Shown: piece after piece, positions 107 through 11,000 of the stretch
Position numbering within the stretch: position 1 is the first letter of the stretch
How the letters are laid out: each line of letters begins with the position of its first letter
Virus record (IMG/VR): IMGVR_UViG_2740892230_000013
Origin: a virus
Taxonomy: Duplodnaviria; Heunggongvirae; Uroviricota; Caudoviricetes
Reading direction: 5' to 3' (one strand)
DNA: 11,897 bases
Notes under the pieces: generated by a model
What the model saw: only the letters and a program-made list of their open reading frames with translations
Databases searched by the model: none
What the model was told of the DNA's origin: nothing
Made by a program: the position numbers and the translations under genes

Positions 107-1108
107 TTACCCTCTATTGTCAAAAGGGTTCAATTCAACAGCAGCCTCTAAATGACCTGGAGCAAAATGCGCATAACGCATAGTCATTTTTATATCGCTA
201 TGCCCCAGTATTTTTTGCAACACAAGAATATTTCCGCCCCGCATCATAAAATGACTGGCAAACGTGTGACGTAGCACATGAGTTAATTGCCCATCAGGAA
301 GCTCGATCTTCGCTCTCTTAATTGCAGCGTCAAAAGCCTCATAACATGGTGAAAATAGCGCTCCTCGTTTTTTAGGAAGTATAGCCTGCAATTGAGGTGA
401 AATCGGTACAGTGCGGTTCTTCTTTCCTTTAGTTTTAACAAATGTGATTCGACCGGGCAGTACTTGAGATTGCTTTAATCCTTCTGCTTCACTCCACCGA
501 GCACCCGTCGCAAGCCCAATACGGACAACAACCCCCAAATCTTTATTCCGTGACTCATCACACGCAATCAGAAGGCGTTCAATCTCATCTACATACAGAA
601 ACGCCAGTTCCTTTTCTTCCTCACGAAACTTGCGAATACCAGTCAGGGGGTTTTCACCAGACCACTCCCCAAGGCGCTTCAGTTCGGCAAAAACAGCATG
701 TAGATATGACTGCTCGCGATTAACGGTTGCTTCACTAAGTTTTTTCTTCCCCTTGGGATTCCATTCTCCTGATAGCCTTCTTTCCCGATAAGTAGCAAAC
801 ATATTTTTGTCAAACTGAGAAGCAAATGGATCTCCCAGCCTGGAACAAATCGCCTCAAGTTTGACTTTGCGCTCTGCACCAGAGGACAAGGTTTTACCGT
901 ACATCTCAAACCAACGAGCAATCAACTCAGAAAGACGAGGACCAGAACCATCTTGAAACTCGTCTCCAACTCTACTATTCATTATACGGCGCTCATAAGA
1001 GAGCGCCTCACTTTTTGTCGCAAACTGTTTACGAATGCGTTTTCCCGATGCCCCGTAGGGATAACATTCGCAAAGCCATTTACCTGATGTAATCTTACGA
1101 ACCGACAT
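107..1108 (-). CDS. int: Tyrosine recombinase / phage integrase (P2-type)
   Basis: 333-aa ORF. C-terminal catalytic region carries tyrosine-recombinase hallmarks (GARWSEA..., HVLRHTFASHF, LGHSDIKMTMRYAHF: conserved R, H-x-x-R and nucleophile Y). N-terminal 'GKRIRKQF.TKSEA' and the overall layout resemble P2-family integrases as recalled from memory; no search run. Confidence 0.9.
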   Translation of the reverse strand: MSVRKITSGKWLCECYPYGASGKRIRKQFATKSEALSYERRIMNSRVGDEFQDGSGPRLSELIARWFEMYGKTLSSGAERKVKLEAICSRLGDPFASQFDKNMFATYRERRLSGEWNPKGKKKLSEATVNREQSYLHAVFAELKRLGEWSGENPLTGIRKFREEEKELAFLYVDEIERLLIACDESRNKDLGVVVRIGLATGARWSEAEGLKQSQVLPGRITFVKTKGKKNRTVPISPQLQAILPKKRGALFSPCYEAFDAAIKRAKIELPDGQLTHVLRHTFASHFMMRGGNILVLQKILGHSDIKMTMRYAHFAPGHLEAAVELNPFDNRG

Positions 1109-1113
1109 TTTAG

Positions 1114-1461
1114 TTACTTATCACATAAATCAAATGCAGCCTTAGTGACATCCCCCAGAGTCTTTTTTAACCCTGGGGCGGCATCATTATCTAGCCAAAA
1201 TGGATTATTGTTATCTAACGGTAACGCACCAAATGTTTTACCTTTTATTCGAGCCAAACCTGTAAGTGCATATAACTTATTATCGTCAAAATTCATCACA
1301 TAAGGATTACCATCAAGACACTGTAATTGAACCTCATCAGTATTAAATGGCCATACCCCATTGAAACTCTCACGTTCAATAGTTTTAAAAGGCATTGCGA
1401 CGGCGGAAAAAGAAAACATAGATAAAAAAGTAACTAATAGTTGAACCTTTTTTACTTTCAT
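1114..1461 (-). CDS. Hypothetical secreted (periplasmic) protein with Sec signal peptide
   Basis: 115-aa ORF with a typical signal peptide (MKVKKVQLLVTFLSMFSFSAVA|MP, A-x-A cleavage site, no lipobox Cys). GAGGT RBS about 6 nt upstream. Stop lies 5 bp from the int start, so it is co-transcribed with int. Confidence 0.6.
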   Translation of the reverse strand: MKVKKVQLLVTFLSMFSFSAVAMPFKTIERESFNGVWPFNTDEVQLQCLDGNPYVMNFDDNKLYALTGLARIKGKTFGALPLDNNNPFWLDNDAAPGLKKTLGDVTKAAFDLCDK

Positions 1462-1490: not shown

Positions 1491-2141
1491 TTACAAATTA
1501 AAAAACGCCCTAGAAATGACACCGCCTACCAAAACCCCTACGCAGATAAAGAATATTATTTCTTTTGGATAAAGTCGGATTAATTCTGAAGCACGAAGTC
1601 GGACTTCTGGTAAGGTCGAACTCTCTGTGTGGCTTGATGCCGATTGTTGCTCTAACCACGACAATGCAGACTGTAACTGAGAACGAGTAAGATCGTTTAA
1701 ACGTCCTGTACCGAAATTGATATGGCAATACCGCAGAAGTTTTTGTCGAAGTCCACAGTCTTCACTGTTACGTAGTAATAAACTTACAAGAGCCTTACAG
1801 GCATCATGATCTTTACATCGCTCAAGCATTGCATGCAGAAAACTCTCCGCTGTTTTATATTGATTTACTGTCATATCATCAATACCAGCTACACCAATCT
1901 CCGCATGTACTTTTTGCCAAATAATAAACGCTTCAGTATTGCTAGCTTCTGCAATAGCAGCAACCAAGCTATTTAGCTCCTTACGCTGAGCCTTAAGCAA
2001 AGGGCGATCGTCATCATCATTATTCGAAGGGATTGCGATATTGACGGTCTGAGAACCATCATATCGCTCTATCTGAATATTCTTTTCGTGAAAATCACGC
2101 CCAGCAACGCGATTGTTTGAACCGTTTGAGTTGACGGCCAT
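1491..2141 (-). CDS. Hypothetical tail-anchored membrane protein (soluble N-terminal domain, single C-terminal TM helix)
   Basis: 216-aa ORF with a GGAGG RBS 5 nt upstream of the ATG. C-terminal hydrophobic segment IIFFICVGVLVGGVI. N-terminus carries GSNNRVAGRDF, which matches a motif at the C-terminus of the upstream HTH protein. Sits in the same operon as the repressor and int. Confidence 0.65.
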   Translation of the reverse strand: MAVNSNGSNNRVAGRDFHEKNIQIERYDGSQTVNIAIPSNNDDDDRPLLKAQRKELNSLVAAIAEASNTEAFIIWQKVHAEIGVAGIDDMTVNQYKTAESFLHAMLERCKDHDACKALVSLLLRNSEDCGLRQKLLRYCHINFGTGRLNDLTRSQLQSALSWLEQQSASSHTESSTLPEVRLRASELIRLYPKEIIFFICVGVLVGGVISRAFFNL

Positions 2142-2156
2142 GTCACCTCCCTACTA

Positions 2157-2561
2157 TCACCTACCCTTAGTTTCGTTATAGTCACGACCAGCGATACGGT
2201 TATTACCACCAGAAATATTTAACTCACGTCCTGATGGCTGAGTTTCCTTTTCACTGATCGCACCTTTTAAAGCCCCAATCACCGCATTTTTCACATCTAA
2301 CGAAGCTGCTCGAAAGCGAGTAATCAACTCCTGCTCATCATCGTTATAAGTTTCAGGTGAGTGAATTCCCAACACAACATACTGAACATCAAGGCCAAAA
2401 CGAGACAGCGCTGCCAAATACGCAGCATCAGGAAAGCTATCTCCTTTCTCATATCTAAGCTGAGTTAGCTTTTTGACTCCACCAATGTCGCTCATGGCAA
2501 CTTGACTAAGTCCCAATCTTTCCCTTTCCTCACGCAACCGCTGACCAATATCATTTTTCAT
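2157..2561 (-). CDS. HTH XRE-family transcriptional regulator, probable prophage immunity repressor (C/CI analogue)
   Basis: 134-aa ORF. N-terminal helix-turn-helix of the Cro/CI (XRE) type (QRLREERERLGLSQVAMSDIGGVKKLTQLRYEKG). Divergently oriented to the rightward early operon across a 75-bp operator-like region. Followed in the same orientation by int. Confidence 0.8.
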   Translation of the reverse strand: MKNDIGQRLREERERLGLSQVAMSDIGGVKKLTQLRYEKGDSFPDAAYLAALSRFGLDVQYVVLGIHSPETYNDDEQELITRFRAASLDVKNAVIGALKGAISEKETQPSGRELNISGGNNRIAGRDYNETKGR

Positions 2562-2636
2562 ACAAAAACCTTGACAGGTATCTTTTTTGATACCAAAATG
2601 ATTTCACGAGCTATTAGATGATCACAATATACCACT
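2562..2636. promoter_or_regulatory. Divergent promoter/operator region between the repressor and the early operon
   Basis: 75-bp intergenic region between divergent genes. TTGACA at 2571-2576 with a weak -10 candidate 17 bp downstream. Perfect palindrome GGTATC-N6-GATACC at 2577-2594 overlaps the promoter spacer. TGATCA palindrome at 2619-2624. Confidence 0.5.
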
Positions 2637-2843
2637 ATGAAACAAGTTCTTCACGATACCAGATCACGCATTCCGCGTAACACCGCCACAGGTCCAAGAC
2701 TGGCACTTCGGCTGTCCCTCGAGGAGCGAGCCGTCATTGATGAAATGGCAGCTAAAGAACAACGCTCATCCTCTAACATGGCGCGTATGATCTTCCTTCG
2801 CGGCCTAGAGCTAACCCAGAAAGAACAAAACAAATCTTCCTGA
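2637..2843 (+). CDS. Putative ribbon-helix-helix (Arc/MetJ/CopG-like) DNA-binding protein
   Basis: 68-aa ORF, first gene of the rightward operon. Segment LALRLSLEERAVIDEMAAKEQRSSSNMARMIFLRGLE fits the RHH beta-strand/helix/helix pattern. Weak RBS, so the start is uncertain. Confidence 0.5.
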   Translation: MKQVLHDTRSRIPRNTATGPRLALRLSLEERAVIDEMAAKEQRSSSNMARMIFLRGLELTQKEQNKSS

Positions 2844-2859
2844 TCAGGAGGCTAGTGGG

Positions 2860-3063
2860 ATGTCAGGTATAACCATCAATATCAATGTGAATGCCCCCTA
2901 TGTATCCCTGCAGAAATATGCAGAGATAACAGGTATCCCTCTTAATACATGCAAAAAGATGTTGGCTGACGGTCGAATTATTATCCGACCCAAACGCGCC
3001 AAAATGGAAAAGCCTGAAGTAAACCTTGTGGCGATGTTAAAAGACGCTTTGGCTAACAGCTAA
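2860..3063 (+). CDS. Cox/Apl-like small HTH protein (excisionase / early-operon regulator)
   Basis: 67-aa ORF with an AGGAGG RBS about 8 nt upstream. HTH segment YVSLQKYAEITGIPLNTCKKMLADGRI resembles the P2 Cox / AlpA-type excisionase fold as recalled from memory. Position is right of the repressor, as in P2 and 186. Confidence 0.65.
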   Translation: MSGITININVNAPYVSLQKYAEITGIPLNTCKKMLADGRIIIRPKRAKMEKPEVNLVAMLKDALANS

Positions 3064-3084: not shown

Positions 3085-3435
3085 ATGAAAAAAAACGCTA
3101 ATAATCCATACTCCAAATTTCGTAATGGCGTAGAACGCCATGTACACCACGTCGCTACCAGTGCATCACGTAGTAACAGTCGCTATAACCTGAACGAGAC
3201 GCACGCAACACCGGATGGCCACGCTGTAAAACAAATCGGCGAGCATGCCTGGCTGATTGAGAAAGCTGGAATCGTGGTCCACAAATGCCCACGCAATCCG
3301 TTTACTGGAAACCGCATTTTTGCTCTAAGCAGCGGCGACAATCAGTTCGGGCAGGATTTCACATTATACGAAGCACTACGCACGGTTGATCGTCTGCTTC
3401 GCGGACAAAGTTTTATTAAACAGGCTGATTTATAA
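3085..3435 (+). CDS. Hypothetical protein
   Basis: 116-aa ORF in the early operon with no recognisable motif. Coding-like composition. Weak RBS. Confidence 0.5.
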   Translation: MKKNANNPYSKFRNGVERHVHHVATSASRSNSRYNLNETHATPDGHAVKQIGEHAWLIEKAGIVVHKCPRNPFTGNRIFALSSGDNQFGQDFTLYEALRTVDRLLRGQSFIKQADL

Positions 3436-3445
3436 CAGGTGCTTT

Positions 3446-3722
3446 ATGACCAAAGAGCATGCACAAGGTGTATTTATCCGTTTTATTGATTTTCGCGGTG
3501 AACTGTTATTACGCGCATCAGCCATTGACGTAGTTGTTCCATCCGAAAAAAACGCAGCTACTTACGTTTATCTGAACGGTACGCGCCTGACTGTGGAGCT
3601 TCCGTACCAGACCGTACGAGAAATCATTAGCGAAGCTGAAAAGGCACGTCAGGTTAATGGCGATGAACCCTATATCGAAATTATTTGTATGGATTCAGAA
3701 GCTGAAATTCAGAAAGCAGATT
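3446..3722 (+). CDS. Hypothetical protein (92 aa; 3' end and stop lost to the N-gap at 3723-3732, with a second diverged partial copy at 3733-3946)
   Basis: ATG at 3446 with an AGGTG RBS 5 nt upstream. The post-gap segment re-encodes residues from about AID... to ...EIQKAD followed by TAA at 3944-3946, with a few substitutions. This is a variant copy, not a fused 186-aa protein. Confidence 0.55.
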
Positions 3723-3957
3723 NNNNNNNNNNCGCTATTGATGGAGTGGCTCCGGCGGGTAAAAACGGAGCCGACGAAGCCACTTACGTTTATCTGAACG
3801 GCACGCGACTGCTTGTGGAACTTCCGTACCAGACCGTACGAGAAATCATTAGCAAAGCTGAAAAAGCGCGCCAGGCTAATGGCAATGAACCCTATATCGA
3901 AATTATTTGCATGGATTCAGAAGCTGAAATTCAGAAAGCAGATTAAAGGGCGTTGTG

Positions 3958-4601: not shown

Positions 4602-4708
4602 CCATTCTGNNNNNNNNNNTATCACATCTATCTCACTGACGGCACTTACTTTTGCGCCACCAACGTGGTGCAGGTAAATCTTATCAGACAGGTACAGGAG
4701 TCACGCAG

Positions 4709-5875: not shown

Positions 5876-6265
5876 ATGATTGACCGTCACGACTTCGTAA
5901 AATGGGTGCGCACACAGGACACCCGTCTGGCCCCAAAACTTCAGGCAATGTTTGATTTTTATCTCCGTGCCCGCGCCAGCCGGGCACGCACCACAAAACC
6001 GGAGAACGCAGACACCCTTTATTTCACCGTGGACGACTGTTACCGCGTAGCCTTCACGCCACAAGGTCTGGCCCTGTACACCCTGACACCACACGGCGAC
6101 TCCCTGCTGGCGTATTACAACTCCCCGGCCTCCGTATTTGCGGCAATGCTGGCGCATCGTACCGCTGGCGGGTGTGCCTCGCTGAGTGAATACACCACTG
6201 AATTTAACCGCCTTTCCGTCATCTTCTCGCAGGAGTGGCAGCGCGTGACGGGATACCAGCCATGA
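5876..6265 (+). CDS. Hypothetical protein translationally coupled to the replication initiator
   Basis: 129-aa ORF. Its TGA at 6263-6265 overlaps the ATG (6262) of the downstream gene A-like ORF. Confidence 0.6.
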   Translation: MIDRHDFVKWVRTQDTRLAPKLQAMFDFYLRARASRARTTKPENADTLYFTVDDCYRVAFTPQGLALYTLTPHGDSLLAYYNSPASVFAAMLAHRTAGGCASLSEYTTEFNRLSVIFSQEWQRVTGYQP

Positions 6266-9200
6266 GTGAGTTTGCATGGAGCTGGAATGAACCGCAGCCA
6301 GCTATTGATCCGGACGACTTCGCGAACTTCAGCCAGTTGCCAAAAACCGGACTGCAACGCGCCATTCGTTACTACTATGAGGCGGACAAAAAGGCTCAGG
6401 AAGAACAGGATGCGAAGGAAGAAGCCTTTTTCGCACAATCCGCCATGGGTAAAAAACTCATGGCATCCCTTGAGGAAGCCGGGCAACGCGAAAAACTGAT
6501 AAAAAACATCATCAGTAAGCGCCAGGAAATAAAGCAAGACCCGGTGGCCTGCGCCTTTGCCGAACTGAAGGCACTTCCCGTTTATCTGCGAGACCCCCTG
6601 AGCCGCCGCCTCTCTTTTTTACGTAAGAAGCAGGAATCTGACCGCCAGAAAGGAAAAAACGCCAGGCTGGCAGAACGCTATGCACAAGGAACCCTGCTCA
6701 AAATATTCAAACGTCTGAAACGCACTGACGGACGCTGGCTGACACCGTGTTATTGCTCCCTTGCCGGACGCGAACGCCTGGACGATTTGCTTTACCTGCC
6801 GCAGCTCAACAAACACCAGATACAGACGCTGGCCACCATGACGGCGGCGATGTTCAGCAGCACTTTTGAAACACTCTGCGATAACTTTGGCGCGACCGAT
6901 GGCGAGCTGACCATGAAAATTGCGCTGAAGGCGTATCAGATGCTGGCCCGCATGGCGTTACATCTGCACACCATGCCGCCGCATTACGAAGCACTGAGAA
7001 CGGACAAAGACCGGAAGAACGCACCGAATACGGAGCTGCTGCCGGGTGCCATCCTTCGCCTGACCTGTGCGGAATGGTGGAAACACAAACTGTGGCTTTT
7101 ACGTTGCGAGTGGCGGGAAGAACAACTCCGTGCCGCCTGTCTGGTTTCCAGAAAAACATCACCCTATCTGAGCCAGGACGCGTTAAGCGAGTTTCGCGCA
7201 CAGCGCGAGAAAACACGCGATTTCCTGAAAAGTTTCATGCTGGAAAATGAAGACGGGTTCACGATTGATCTCGAGACGGTGTATTACGCGGGAGTAAGTA
7301 ACCCGGTTCACCGTAAGGCAGAAATGATGGCCACCATGAAGGGGCTGGAACTTCTGGCCGAAGCCCGTGGCGACAAAGCGGTGTTTCTGACTGTCACCTG
7401 CCCGTCAAAATACCACGCCACAACGGAGAACGGTCATCCGAATCCCAAATGGAACGGGGCCACAATGCGCGACTCCAGCGATTACCTGGTTAACACGTTT
7501 TTTGCGGCGGTCCGCAAAAAACTGAACCGCGACGACCTGCGCTGGTATGGCATCCGCACGGTGGAGCCTCATCATGACGGCACCGTGCACTGGCATATGA
7601 TGGTCTTTGCACATCCGGAAGAAATCGACACCATTGTGTCCCATACCCGCGATATTGCCATTCAGGAAGACCGCCACGAGCTGGGCAATGATATTACTCC
7701 GCGCTTTAAGGTGGAGTATGTCGACGGCTCAAAAGGCACGCCAACCAGCTACATCGCCACCTACATCGGAAAGAACCTGGACAGCCGCGCCGTGGATGGC
7801 ATCGACCCGAAAACGGACAAGCCACGCGTGGACCACGAAACCGGAAAATCAATGGCCGAGAGCGTGGAACGCGCCATCGGCTGGGCGCGTCTTCACCGCG
7901 TCCGCCAGTTCCAGTTCTTTGGTATCCCCTCCCGTCAGGTGTGGCGTGAACTGCGCCGCCTTGCCAGCCAGATGGCACGCAACCCGGAAGGCCCGCAACG
8001 GCTGAAGGATGACGCAATGGACGCGGTACTCGCTGCCGCTGATGCCGGATGTTTTGCCACCTACATTGAGAAACAGGGTGGCGNNNNNNNNNNATGGCGT
8101 GAACTCCGCCGCCTTGCCAGTCAGATGGCCCGCAACCCGGAAGGTCCACAACGTCTGGAAAATGACGCAATGGATGCGGTACTCGCTGCCGCTGATGCCG
8201 GGTGTTTTGCCACCTACATTGAGAAACAGGGTGGCGTACTTGTTCCACGCAAAGACTACCTGATTCGCACCGCCTACGACCTCGCAGATGAGCTGAACGA
8301 TTACGGTGAACAGAGCGTACAGATTTACGGGATCTGGTCGCCGCTCATTGGGGAGTCTTCCCGCGTATGCACGCATCCGGATAACTGGAAGCTGGTAAGA
8401 CGCAAACCGGAAGCGGAAGACAGCGCCCGCGAAAATGNNNNNNNNNNAGAGCTGAACGATTACGGCGAGCAAAGCGTACAGATTTACGGGATCTGGTCGC
8501 CACAAATCGGGGAATCTTCCCGCGTGTGCACACACCCGGATAACTGGAAGCTGGTAAGACGTAAACCGGAAGCGGAAGACAGCGCCCGCGAAAATGGTTT
8601 TGACCTTCAGGGCGGCCCTGCCGCCCCTTGGACTCGTGGCAATAACTGTCCCCGTGTACAGGAAACAGACAACAACGGGACAGAACAGCCGGAAGAACGA
8701 CCAACATCGTGGCTGCAGCTCCCTGACGGCGTTGAAGTGAACGAATGGATGCGCTCACTGAAACGGCACGAACGCCGGGCGCTGATGCGTTCGCTTCGTG
8801 ACAAACAGGCAAAAAACAGCAGNNNNNNNNNNGGACAACAACGGGACAGAACAGCCGGAAGAACGGCCAGCACCGTGGCCGCAGCTCCCTGACGGCGTTG
8901 AAGTGAACGAATGGNNNNNNNNNNTGATGAAGCGCAGAGCTGGACACAGAGCCGCAAACAGCAGCGGCCTTTGCCTGATAACCACGAATTACTCGCTAAA
9001 GAATGGCGGGAGTCTGCTGAATNNNNNNNNNNCGATGAAATGCAGAGCTGGACACAGAGCCGCAAACAGCCGCGGCCTTTGCCTGATAACCACGAGTTAC
9101 TCGCTAAAGAATGGCGGGAGTCTGCTGAATCTCTCGGCCTGCATATCGGTGAACAACAGATGCAGCACCTGTTACGGGGCGGCAGTCTGTACGTTGACGG

Positions 9201-9665: not shown

Positions 9666-9943
9666 TAAACGATTAATTAATCAACATAAGGAAAACCGAC
9701 ATGAAAATTTACATCGACGACGGCTCCACCAACATCAAGCTGGCATNNNNNNNNNNAGCCGCAAAGCAGACCTGCTGCGGGGTGGCCTAACCAGTGGAAA
9801 CAAAAAACAGACAGAAACGGGACTCACAAATCCCGTAAATGAGCAAAAAACGCGCCGCGATATATGAAGCGCGCACAAAACAGGCAAAAGCGGGATTTCA
9901 GAATCCTGTAACCGATTAATTAATCAACATAAGGAAAAGCGAC

Positions 9944-11000
9944 ATGAAAATTTGTATCGACGACGGCTCCACCAACATCAAGCTGGCATNNNNNNNNNNT
10001 GTAATCGCCATTCACCACGCGCTGGTCAAATCAGGCATCACACCACAGGAGGTGGATGTGGTTGTCACCCTGCCACNNNNNNNNNNGGACCGAGAGCGGC
10101 GAACGCCGCAACGCCATCAGCCCGAACAGCTTCAAGTCGGAATGGTCTGCGCCGTTCGGTGGCACACAGCCCGCGAACTACATGCTTGATGGCGTGCGCT
10201 ATGGTTTTGATCCGGTCAGCGATCGCTTTGTCCAGACGACCGACACGCAATACCAGTACAGCGATGTGAACGTAATTGCCATTCATCACGCGCTAGTCAA
10301 ATCAGGCATCACGCCACAGGAGGTGGATGTGGTTGTCACCCTGCCACTGAGCGAATATTTCGACACAAACGCACAGCCGGACATGGCCAACATCAACCGC
10401 AAAAAAGCGAACGTCATGCGCCCGGTGGAGTGCCAGAACGGTGAGGCATTCACTATCCGTAACGTGCGGGTTATGCCTGAATCCATTCCGGCTGGCTTTA
10501 AAGCACTGGCTGACATGAGTCCGTTTGAATCCCTGCTGATTGTGGATTTGGGCGGAACCACGCTGGATGTGGCAAAGGTTCAGGGACAACTGGCAGGTAT
10601 CAGCCAGGTATTTTGCGATCCACACGTAGGCGTTTCCCTGATGGCCGATGCCGTACTGTCGGTGATGGCCACTAACGGTATGCGTACCAGTCACCACATC
10701 GCCAATACCATTATCGAACATCGCCATGATGAAGCCTGGCTGCGCCAGCACATCCACAATGACGCGCATTACGCCAGCCTGATGGCGGTTATTCGTGAAA
10801 AGGAAGAAACACTGAAACAACGCGTGATCCGCGCGCTGGCGGGTTTTTCGGGTTACGGGCGGGTGATGGTTGTCGGTGGCGGGGCGGAGATTGTGGCACC
10901 CGCTATCCGCGAAGCCTGCGGAGTTAATGCGACTTTCATCGCGGACGGGGTGCCACAGTTTGCTCTGGTTAATGGGCTGTACGCAATGGACAAGGAGTAA
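9944..11000 (+). CDS. parM: ParM/StbA-like actin-fold partition ATPase (composite across N-gaps; an alternative start copy is at 9701-9746)
   Basis: N-terminus MKI(Y/C)IDDGSTNIKLA. Internal matches to plasmid R1 ParM recalled from memory (ISPNSFK, YSDVNVIAIHHALVKSGI, VMPESIPAG, DLGGTTLDV, VVGGGAEI, LVNGLYAMDKE). GGA RBS 8 nt upstream of both start copies. 10000-10076 is a misplaced variant copy of 10272-10337. Confidence 0.85.

What the first reader, a model, noticed from the sequence alone, without database searches (positions are those of the whole stretch)
2091..2210. Shared peptide motif spanning the repressor / membrane-protein gene junction
The HTH protein ends ...NISGGNNRIAGRDYNETKGR and the next protein begins MAVNSNGSNNRVAGRDFHEK.... 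The motif G-x-NNR-[IV]-AGRD-[YF] occurs twice within about 120 bp across the gene boundary, and the nucleotide sequences are only about 70% identical, so this is not a recent duplication artefact. Both proteins also carry an acidic N-D-D-[DE] stretch followed by a helix-like segment. This points to a homologous interaction or recognition module shared by a DNA-binding regulator and a membrane-tethered partner (co-recognition by one protease, heterodimerisation, or a membrane-anchored anti-repressor/sensor).
Basis: seen in the sequence. Interest (0 to 1): 0.65.

Follow-up and report, generated by a model that had tools for sequence, protein, structure and literature searches.

The report
Matched peptide links repressor, membrane protein
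A prophage's repressor and the membrane protein encoded right after it carry matching copies of a short peptide. The peptide differs between phage lineages but stays matched within each phage, which suggests an undescribed way of coupling the lysogeny switch to the cell membrane.

Summary
The XRE-HTH repressor (2157-2561, -) ends ...LNISGGNNRIAGRDYNE and the next gene's product (1491-2141, -) begins MAVNSNGSNNRVAGRDFHE (BLASTP E 2e-5). The DNA copies are only 59-67% identical.

The window is the immunity region of a P2-like prophage, 100% identical to E. coli 55989 and present in 521 of 5426 complete E. coli genomes. The partner is a tail-anchored inner-membrane protein with a Flk_N helical domain. 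AlphaFold2 places both motif copies in disordered termini.

The key result is co-variation. In related loci from Gamma- and Betaproteobacteria, including Mu-like phages B3 and KS10, the repressor tail differs between lineages, yet the next ORF starts with the matching version. Mean within-locus score is 37.5 against 22.4±1.4 for shuffled pairings (0 of 100,000). Partner bodies fall into at least 13 unrelated groups, nearly all with a membrane segment. Codons at identical residues match only 46% of the time, so recent gene conversion is unlikely.

The gene layout, motif length and composition (N, Q, G, V enriched; L, K, P depleted) resemble amyloid signalling pairs such as HET-s/NWD2, BASS and Bab/Agp. 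No repressor case was found in the literature.

Best reading: pair-specific docking of the repressor tail to its membrane partner. Binding itself is untested.

The parts
2157..2561 (-). XRE-family HTH immunity repressor, 134 aa, at the position of P2 gene C and divergent from Arc-like/Cox-like genes
   Evidence: ORF. HTH_31/HTH_3 and RstR/DicA-type hits. PHROG 8 transcriptional regulator, E 2.5e-14. Annotated context in E. coli 55989 and phage 520873. AF2 shows HTH plus two helices at residues 1-106, pLDDT 80-96.
2160..2240 (-). Disordered C-terminal tail of the repressor (residues 108-134). It holds motif copy 1 (residues 114-130, LNISGGNNRIAGRDYNE, 2172-2222) followed by a basic end (TKGR).
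   Evidence: pLDDT about 42 and no secondary structure. The tail motif is conserved as INVSGxGNRVAGRD[YF]NENKK in Enterobacterales homologues.
2142..2159 (-). Gene junction: TGA TAG TAG (three in-frame stops), the GGAGGT Shine-Dalgarno sequence, then a spacer before the partner's ATG
   Evidence: Sequence read directly.
1491..2141 (-). Partner: 216-aa tail-anchored inner-membrane protein with a Flk_N domain
   Evidence: NCBIfam Flk, residues 35-166, E 7.8e-16, far below the equivalog cut-off. PF27202 Flk_N on homologues. PHROG 5825, E 7e-103.
2007..2141 (-). Disordered cytoplasmic N-terminus of the partner (residues 1-45). It holds motif copy 2 (residues 3-19, VNSNGSNNRVAGRDFHE, 2085-2135).
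   Evidence: pLDDT below 50. Conserved as MxVNSxGxxNRxAGRDFNENxIQI in 120 homologues; G7, N10, R11, D16 and E19 are invariant.
1626..2003 (-). Flk_N-type helical domain of the partner (residues 47-172)
1497..1568 (-). C-terminal transmembrane helix (tail anchor, residues 192-215)
   Evidence: Kyte-Doolittle 19-residue maximum of 2.36 at residue 195, three residues from the C-end. AF2 helix 192-215.
107..1461 (-). Downstream genes on the same strand: DUF2511 protein (1114-1461) and phage integrase (107-1108). They probably form one operon with the repressor and partner.
   Evidence: ORFs and Pfam. RefSeq annotation. No terminator-like site between 1050 and 2900.
2571..3063 (+). Divergent early region: promoter-like site 2571-2599, Arc-like gene 2637-2843 and Cox-like gene 2860-3063
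   Evidence: Promoter scan. PHROG 3431 Arc-like, E 1e-28, and PHROG 575 Cox-like, E 1e-27. Annotation of phage 520873.

Best explanation
The motif is a pair-specific docking peptide. One copy sits in the disordered C-terminal tail of the prophage immunity repressor. The other sits in the disordered cytoplasmic N-terminus of the membrane-anchored protein translated from the next cistron.

I propose that the two copies bind each other by strand-to-strand (β-arch type) pairing. Part of the repressor pool would then be held at, or assembled on, the inner-membrane partner. The state of the partner (its amount, its oligomerisation, or a membrane or envelope cue read through its variable body and TM segment) would set how much free repressor is available at the operators. 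The partner would thus act as a membrane-anchored modulator, an anti-repressor or sensor, of lysogeny maintenance. Different phages use mutually orthogonal motif versions, in the same way that they use different immunity specificities.

Shown here: the motif, its conservation in both genes, its co-variation between lineages, its position in disordered termini, the membrane anchor, and the tight collinear gene arrangement.

Inferred: physical binding, the direction of control, and the signal.
For: (1) Both copies are under purifying selection. They are conserved in about 100 repressor and 120 partner cluster representatives of Enterobacterales, while the DNA is 59-67% identical.

(2) They co-vary. 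In 33 non-redundant loci the mean within-locus Smith-Waterman score of tail against next-ORF N-terminus is 37.5, against 22.4±1.4 for permuted pairings; 0 of 100,000 permutations reach it. In 27 of 80 loci the best six-frame match to the tail anywhere in about 7.3 kb is at the start of the next ORF. Examples:
- QIFNGDISGQFAGNQIINN | QEFNGTAQGQFSSRDIINI
- QQINGPISGGVAGRDF | QEINGDVEGGIAGRDI
- YGNAQIGQASAGDI | FGGAQIDQAAAGDI
- NRVAGDNYYE | NRTAGRNYYE
- SAENIYNF | AANNIYNIY
- B3 ORF18 ISVTGDGNRTAGRDFHE | ORF20 IEVTGSNNIVAGRDFIE

(3) This is not gene conversion. Only 103 of 225 identical residues use the same codon.

(4) The pairing is independent of the partner's body. Partner sequences beyond residue 32 fall into at least 13 BLAST-unrelated groups, nearly all with a strong hydrophobic segment.

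(5) Different motif classes coexist in the same host genus or species, each matched to its own partner.

(6) Both copies lie in AF2-disordered termini attached to well-folded domains.

(7) The genes are collinear with 15 nt between them here and -3 to +35 nt elsewhere. No terminator-like site was found.

(8) The HTH gene occupies the immunity-repressor position in P2-like and Mu-like phages.
Against: There is no direct evidence of binding.

Some tailed repressors have no matching neighbour, for example the Janthinobacterium type in L017, L247 and L250.

Within Enterobacterales the motif is so conserved that fine-scale compensatory change is rare. One variant is not mirrored: the L167 repressor has AGGDY where its partner has AGRDY.

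The function of the Flk_N domain is unknown, so the proposed 'signal' is speculation.

Co-variation is also compatible with both copies tracking a third, phage-encoded ligand.
Confidence: 0.55

Rival explanations
1. Same physical pairing, opposite direction of control. The membrane protein is the effector, for example a superinfection-exclusion, lysis-related or toxic membrane protein. The repressor tail docks on its N-terminus and keeps it inactive or active, as an antitoxin would. Loss of repressor at induction or curing would then switch the membrane protein.
For: XRE-HTH proteins often double as antitoxins, and weak MqsA/HipB-type hits were seen. In Mu-like phages the pair sits directly upstream of holin and endolysin genes. 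Genes co-transcribed with prophage repressors are typically membrane exclusion proteins (established knowledge: lambda rexAB, P22 sieA/B). All evidence for direct pairing applies equally.
Against: There are no PADLOC hits for the partner. Partner bodies are very diverse, which fits sensors better than a single effector activity. In known motif-sharing pairs the protein with the C-terminal copy is the controlled effector, and here that is the repressor.
Confidence: 0.2
2. The two copies do not bind each other. Both are ligands for a third component: a host protease, chaperone or adaptor acting through a shared degron, another phage protein, or the partner's own helical domain, with the N-terminal copy acting as a pseudo-substrate that competes with the repressor tail.
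For: Terminal disordered peptides are typical degrons, and the Mu repressor tail controls ClpXP sensitivity (established knowledge). The partner's helical domain resembles the Redβ C-terminal domain, a module that binds a terminal peptide of SSB.
Against: Different motif classes occur in the same host genus or species, each matched to its own neighbour. This argues against a conserved host factor. The pairing persists with at least 13 unrelated partner bodies, which argues against the Flk_N domain as the common receptor.
Confidence: 0.15
3. The similarity is a relic without function. It would be the remnant of a junction duplication or of the splitting of one ancestral HTH-membrane protein gene, kept similar by occasional gene conversion.
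For: In this window the two ORFs are in the same frame and only 15 nt apart, as expected after a split.
Against: Both copies are conserved at the protein level over large distances, while the DNA is 46-81% identical and synonymous codons are scrambled. Frames and spacing differ between loci. The motif co-varies across classes. The flanking linkers are not conserved.
Confidence: 0.03

Closest known systems
Amyloid signalling motif pairs: fungal HET-s/NWD2, bacterial BASS1-10 (Bell-domain protein + NLR), and E. coli Bab/Agp (BASS11)
   Same: A motif of about 20 residues is shared between the C-terminus of one protein and the N-terminus of the product of the adjacent collinear gene, with a very short or overlapping junction. 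The composition bias is the same: Q, N, G and V enriched; K, P and L depleted. The motif falls into several classes that are matched within pairs. It is attached modularly to different domains. Some tails carry two pseudo-repeats, for example KS10 gp13, L023 and L037.
   Different: The protein with the C-terminal copy is a DNA-binding phage repressor, not a pore-forming cell-death domain. The protein with the N-terminal copy is a small membrane protein, not an NLR/STAND or TPR-GreA/B-C-PIN sensor. The hosts are Gamma- and Betaproteobacteria and the elements are temperate phages. Amyloid formation is untested. No sequence relationship to a named BASS family could be checked, because the logos are only in figures.
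Flk (Salmonella/E. coli flagellar regulator, tail-anchored inner-membrane protein)
   Same: Both have the Flk_N helical domain (PF27202) and a C-terminal tail anchor. Flk is an experimentally verified tail-anchored protein (PMC6794478).
   Different: The score is 58 bits against the equivalog cut-off of 353. The phage protein is shorter (216 aa against a 339-position model), is encoded in a prophage immunity operon, and carries the N-terminal motif. No link to flagella is indicated.
Homotypic adaptor domains of conflict systems (effector-associated domains, Death-like domains; Kaur et al. 2020, as cited)
   Same: The logic is the same: one small module is placed on a sensor and on its effector, which are encoded side by side.
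   Different: Here the module is a disordered peptide of about 17-22 residues, not a folded domain. The effector is a transcription factor.
Membrane sequestration of transcription factors (Mlc by PtsG, PutA) and phage antirepressors (186 Tum, P22 Ant, VP882 Qtip); own knowledge
   Same: Repressor activity is controlled by protein-protein capture rather than by cleavage. Qtip aggregates its cI repressor into foci.
   Different: None of these uses a peptide duplicated in the repressor and its captor. Known antirepressors are soluble, are encoded elsewhere and are induced on demand, whereas this partner is co-transcribed with the repressor.

Membership tests
Amyloid signalling motif pair (BASS / HET-s-type) | The same short motif at the C-terminus of one protein and at the N-terminus of the product of an adjacent gene | tested here: met
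Amyloid signalling motif pair (BASS / HET-s-type) | Collinear genes with a very short intergenic distance or an overlap | tested here: met
   15 nt in the window and -3 to +35 nt in most other loci. For comparison, 57% of BASS pairs are within 10 bp.
Amyloid signalling motif pair (BASS / HET-s-type) | Length of about 20-25 residues with conserved G/N/Q. Composition enriched in Q, N, G, V, I and depleted in K, P, L. | tested here: met
   In 48 motif segments: N 2.4x, Q 2.3x, G 2.2x, V 1.7x; L 0.08x, K 0.41x, P 0.41x. Isoleucine is not enriched (0.79x). The matched stretch is 10-25 residues.
Amyloid signalling motif pair (BASS / HET-s-type) | Partners are an NLR/STAND (or other immune) sensor and a cell-death effector (Bell/HeLo etc.) | tested here: not met
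   The proteins are an XRE-HTH repressor and a Flk_N or other small membrane protein. No PADLOC hit was found for the partner.
Amyloid signalling motif pair (BASS / HET-s-type) | The motif forms amyloid fibrils or prion-like foci and templates its partner | not testable with these tools
   Only monomer AF2 was available. Both segments have low confidence and no strands.
Flk (NCBIfam PRK10715 equivalog) | Full-length match above the curated cut-off (353 bits) | tested here: not met
   58.3 bits, covering residues 35-166 against model positions 18-149 of 339. The protein shares the Flk_N domain only.
Flk (NCBIfam PRK10715 equivalog) | C-terminal tail anchor with a cytoplasmic N-terminal domain | tested here: met
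   Hydropathy maximum at residues 195-213 of 216. AF2 helix 192-215.
Temperate-phage immunity repressor (P2 C / Mu c position) | HTH protein transcribed divergently from the early lytic operon (Cox/Ner/Cro-like), next to the integrase or transposase region | tested here: met
   Window layout. E. coli 55989 and phage 520873. B3 ORF18 and KS10 gp13, the latter annotated as phage repressor.
Temperate-phage immunity repressor (P2 C / Mu c position) | Binds operators and confers immunity | not testable with these tools
   Only weak repeats were found in the 2540-2640 intergenic region.
Type II toxin-antitoxin pair (XRE antitoxin + toxin) | The downstream protein belongs to a known toxin family | tested here: not met
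   There are no toxin-family hits in Pfam, NCBIfam or PADLOC.

The most novel reading that the evidence does not exclude
The motif is a true amyloid (prion-like) signalling sequence. When the membrane partner clusters, its N-terminal copies adopt a β-arch fold. That fold templates the repressor tails into an ordered polymer, which pulls repressor off the DNA and switches the prophage. This would be the first case of amyloid templating that controls a transcription factor and a lysis-lysogeny decision. Motif classes would act as orthogonal 'immunity' channels in Mu-like and P2-like phages.
Probability: 0.3. Interest if true: 0.92.

Novelty: new variant of a known kind. Interest (0 to 1): 0.77.

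Why it matters
How non-SOS prophages of the P2 and B3/Mu types decide to leave lysogeny is poorly understood. A peptide shared and co-evolving between the immunity repressor and a co-transcribed membrane protein points to a direct link between the membrane and the genetic switch. That link can be tested at once in culturable systems: E. coli 55989 or phage 520873, Pseudomonas phage B3, and Burkholderia phage KS10.

If the pairing is amyloid-like, it extends amyloid signalling, so far tied to cell-death effectors, to transcriptional control. It would also show that such motifs are common in Proteobacteria, where the original BASS survey found few Bell/NLR pairs.

The locus is in about 10% of complete E. 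coli genomes, including pathogenic lineages. The existence of orthogonal motif classes also offers a set of small, specific docking tags.

Tried and rejected
- A fused read-through construct (window:1491-2561:-) was submitted for structure prediction as a surrogate for a heterodimer.
- The afdb50 fold library was not available.
- PADLOC gave nothing for the partner.
- A protein search of the GenBank phage collection with the partner found only phage 520873.
- Literature searches found no description of this module. They combined amyloid signalling with HTH, repressor or prophage terms; looked for membrane sequestration of phage repressors; and looked for the motif strings themselves.
- The 'acidic NDD[DE] + helix' resemblance was examined and rejected as homology.
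- Programmed read-through or fusion was rejected because of the triple stop and the variable frames elsewhere.
- Gene conversion was rejected on codon evidence.
- Recognition by a host factor was down-weighted because several motif classes occur in one host genus.

Full report
**What is in the window.**
The 11.9-kb window is the integrase/immunity/early-replication end of a P2-like (Peduoviridae, Xuanwuvirus-type) prophage. Positions 1100-2650 are 100% identical to E. coli 55989. The segment occurs in 521 of 5426 complete E. coli genomes, almost always on the chromosome. In strain 55989 it lies next to yecA and is followed by P2-type replication, portal, terminase and capsid genes.

On the minus strand the order is:
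- XRE-HTH protein (2157-2561, 134 aa)
- a 216-aa membrane protein (1491-2141)
- a DUF2511 protein (1114-1461)
- integrase (107-1108)

Arc-like (2637-2843) and Cox-like (2860-3063) genes run divergently. The HTH gene therefore occupies the position of the immunity repressor. No terminator-like site lies between 1050 and 2900, so the four minus-strand genes plausibly form one operon, as C-int does in P2.

**Check of the observation.**
The repressor ends ...RELNISGGNNRIAGRDYNETKGR and the next protein begins MAVNSNGSNNRVAGRDFHEK. BLASTP of the two proteins aligns only this stretch: 10/17 identical, 15/17 positive, E = 2e-5 for the pair. The copies are at 2172-2222 and 2085-2135. DNA identity is 59% over 17 codons and 67% over the 11-codon core, and half of the identical residues use different codons.

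The genes are separated by TGA TAG TAG GGAGGT GAC, in the same frame. The triple stop rules out read-through.

**The two proteins.**
AlphaFold2 with family alignments gives the following.

| Protein | Folded part | Disordered part |
|---|---|---|
| Repressor | five-helix HTH plus two helices, residues 1-106, pLDDT 80-96 | tail 108-134, pLDDT about 42 |
| Partner | helical domain 47-172, pLDDT about 90; C-terminal TM helix 192-215 | N-terminus 1-45, pLDDT below 50 |

Hydropathy places the only strong hydrophobic segment of the partner three residues from its C-terminus. The helical domain matches the N-terminal part of Flk in NCBIfam (E 7.8e-16, but 58 bits against an equivalog cut-off of 353). 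Homologues carry Pfam PF27202, Flk_N. Flk is a verified tail-anchored inner-membrane protein (PMC6794478).

**Conservation.**
Among the listed repressor homologues from Escherichia, Salmonella, Klebsiella, Yersinia, Serratia, Pectobacterium and others, the tail reads INVSGxGNRVAGRD[YF][NH]ExKK. All 120 listed partner homologues begin MxVNSxGxxNRxAGRDFNENxIQI, with G7, N10, R11, D16 and E19 invariant. In IMG/VR viral contigs found with the partner family, 77 of 80 loci have the tailed HTH gene immediately upstream.

**Co-variation, the decisive result.**
More distant repressor homologues keep the HTH and the helical region but have quite different tails. I fetched 80 loci from species-representative genomes and 80 from viral contigs. 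The ORF that starts within -3 to +35 nt of the repressor stop begins with the version of the motif found in its own repressor:

| Locus | Repressor tail | Next ORF N-terminus |
|---|---|---|
| Pectobacterium L012 | QIFNGDISGQFAGNQIINN | MRQEFNGTAQGQFSSRDIINI |
| L014 | QQINGPISGGVAGRDFVQ | MKQEINGDVEGGIAGRDIVR |
| L018 | KQVFKGSVSGVAGRDVVK | MKQTFKGPVGDVAGNDVVK |
| L019 | TVDYGNAQIGQASAGDIVN | TVSFGGAQIDQAAAGDINN |
| L233 | KQVFHGAVSGGVAARDIINN | MQEFQGNVDGGVAGRDIVNQ |
| L207 | ...SAENIYNF | ...AANNIYNIY |
| L169 | NRVAGDNYYEKK | NRTAGRNYYEVK |

The same holds in cultured Mu-like phages:

| Phage | Repressor tail | Next ORF N-terminus |
|---|---|---|
| Pseudomonas phage B3 | ORF18 ...ISVTGDGNRTAGRDFHERKE | ORF20 VNIEVTGSNNIVAGRDFIENH |
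| Burkholderia phage KS10 | gp13 ...ASGSGITQVGSRV | gp12 ...ASGFGIIQVAGDL |

Three quantitative tests support this:
- In 33 non-redundant loci the mean within-locus local-alignment score is 37.5, against 22.4±1.4 for permuted pairings. None of 100,000 permutations reaches the observed value.
- In an unbiased scan, the best six-frame match to the repressor's last 28 residues anywhere in the ~7.3-kb locus lies at the start of the next ORF in 27 of 80 loci. My estimate of the chance expectation is about one locus.
- At identical residues only 103 of 225 codons are the same, and motif DNA identity is 46-81%. The match is therefore maintained at the protein level and not by recent gene conversion.

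**What the pairing does and does not depend on.**
After removal of the first 32 residues, partner proteins fall into at least 13 BLAST-unrelated groups: an Flk_N group of 18, one group of three, and eleven singletons including B3 ORF20. Nearly all have one or two strongly hydrophobic segments. The constant features are therefore the repressor, the matched peptide and membrane anchoring, not the Flk_N domain.

Different motif classes occur in one host genus or species, each with its own partner:
- Pectobacterium has both the NRVAGRDY class and the QIFNGDISGQF class.
- P. aeruginosa has B3 (NRTAGRDF) and P0103 (QQFNGPVGTVTSGDVVN).

This argues against recognition by a conserved host factor and for pair-specific recognition. 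It is comparable to heteroimmunity.

**Comparison with known systems.**
A motif of about 20 residues shared by the C-terminus of one protein and the N-terminus of the adjacent gene's product is the criterion by which fungal and bacterial amyloid signalling motifs were discovered. Collinear genes that nearly touch are part of that pattern. The criterion also describes the experimentally validated Bab/Agp (BASS11) antiphage system of E. coli.

BASS motifs are about 25 residues long, conserve G/N/Q, are enriched in Q, N, G, V and I, and are depleted in K, P and L. The 48 motif segments collected here show N 2.4x, Q 2.3x, G 2.2x, V 1.7x, L 0.08x, K 0.41x and P 0.41x relative to average proteins. 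Several tails carry two pseudo-repeats, as HET-s-type effectors do.

The differences are substantial. The 'effector' is a phage repressor and the 'sensor' is a small membrane protein. The hosts are Proteobacteria, in which the BASS survey found few Bell/NLR pairs. Amyloid formation is untested. Full-text searches found no paper that links such motifs to HTH proteins, repressors or prophage control, and none that prints the motif itself.

**Most likely mechanism, and rivals.**
I consider direct, pair-specific docking of the repressor tail to the partner's N-terminus the best explanation (about 0.55). The partner would act as a membrane-anchored modulator of repressor availability. It is an open sub-question whether the contact is a simple β-strand complex or prion-like templating. 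I give the latter about 0.3.

The rivals are:
- The same contact used the other way round, with the repressor gating a membrane effector (0.2).
- A shared third ligand or degron (0.15).
- A functionless relic (0.03). argue strongly against this.

Points against the favoured model:
- There are no binding data.
- The monomer models show disorder.
- Some tailed repressors have no matching neighbour (L017, L247, L250).
- At least one substitution is not mirrored (L167).

**Verdict.**
The finding is real, non-random and evolutionarily maintained. It generalises far beyond this window, to P2-like and Mu-like temperate phages of Gamma- and Betaproteobacteria. It is best filed as a new variant of the 'shared terminal motif in adjacent genes' signalling principle, applied to a lysogeny repressor. 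It is worth experimental follow-up.

Noticed in passing
window 3723-3732, 4610-4619, 8084-8093, 8438-8447, 8823-8832, 8915-8924, 9023-9032, 9747-9756, 9990-9999, 10077-10086: There are ten runs of exactly 10 N. Several are flanked by near-duplicate sequence on both sides. For example, the ORF at 3386-3946 repeats '...ATYVYLNGTRL.VELPYQTVREIIS.AEKARQ.NG.EPYIEIICMDSEAEIQKAD' before and after the gap, and the replication-protein ORF at 6235-8892 repeats segments around its gaps. These look like assembly or scaffolding joins of variant copies, not biology. ORFs that cross them are unreliable.
   Followed up: partly
window 2637-2843 (+): The Arc-like ORF (PHROG 3431, E 1e-28; annotated in phage 520873) is not annotated in RefSeq E. 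coli 55989. RefSeq instead lists a 45-aa hypothetical protein on the opposite strand in this interval.
   Followed up: partly
L165 767-2801 (Salmonella enterica contig ABCTBU010000011.1): Three tandem XRE-HTH paralogues precede a single Flk_N partner. The first two carry intact tails (...NRVAGRDYNEKK). The third, which is adjacent to the partner, has a degenerate tail (...ARNISDTGNNENK). Several regulators may plug into one partner.
   Followed up: partly
L015 4335-4634; L050 about 444 nt downstream of the repressor stop: Besides the adjacent partner, a second downstream ORF also begins with the motif: MGKTNKDNHPHISVKGDRNIVAGGDIY... in L015 and ...QEFNGNVGQVAGGNIYNYY in L050. Some phages may have two motif-bearing partners.
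   Followed up: no
repressor C-termini in window 2160-2171 and in loci L002-L081: In almost every class the repressor motif is followed by a short Lys/Arg-rich end, for example NKK, KKNK, RRRKTK, GSKRKK and GRKKKSPT. The partner copy lacks this. It could contact DNA or acidic membrane lipids.
   Followed up: no
window 1626-2003 (-): The nearest solved folds to the Flk_N helical domain are small phage protein-interaction bundles: lambda NinB, the Redβ C-terminal domain (which binds Exo and the SSB tail), and the 80α Sak chain of the Sak-Stl (SaPI2 master repressor) complex. PHROG 245 'anti-repressor Ant' gives a weak hit to residues 49-107.
   Followed up: partly
window 10056-11000 (+) and 55989 locus L001 20935-22213: This P2-like prophage carries ParM-type segregation and plasmid-partition genes after the replication gene. 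That is unusual for an integrated P2-type phage.
   Followed up: no
L017, L247, L250 (Janthinobacterium-type repressors): The repressors carry a clear tail (QMVFHGKVGQQIHGDITAPQTINVGRKKK), but no matching N-terminus was found in the adjacent ORF. These are either orphan tails or the partner is encoded elsewhere.
   Followed up: no
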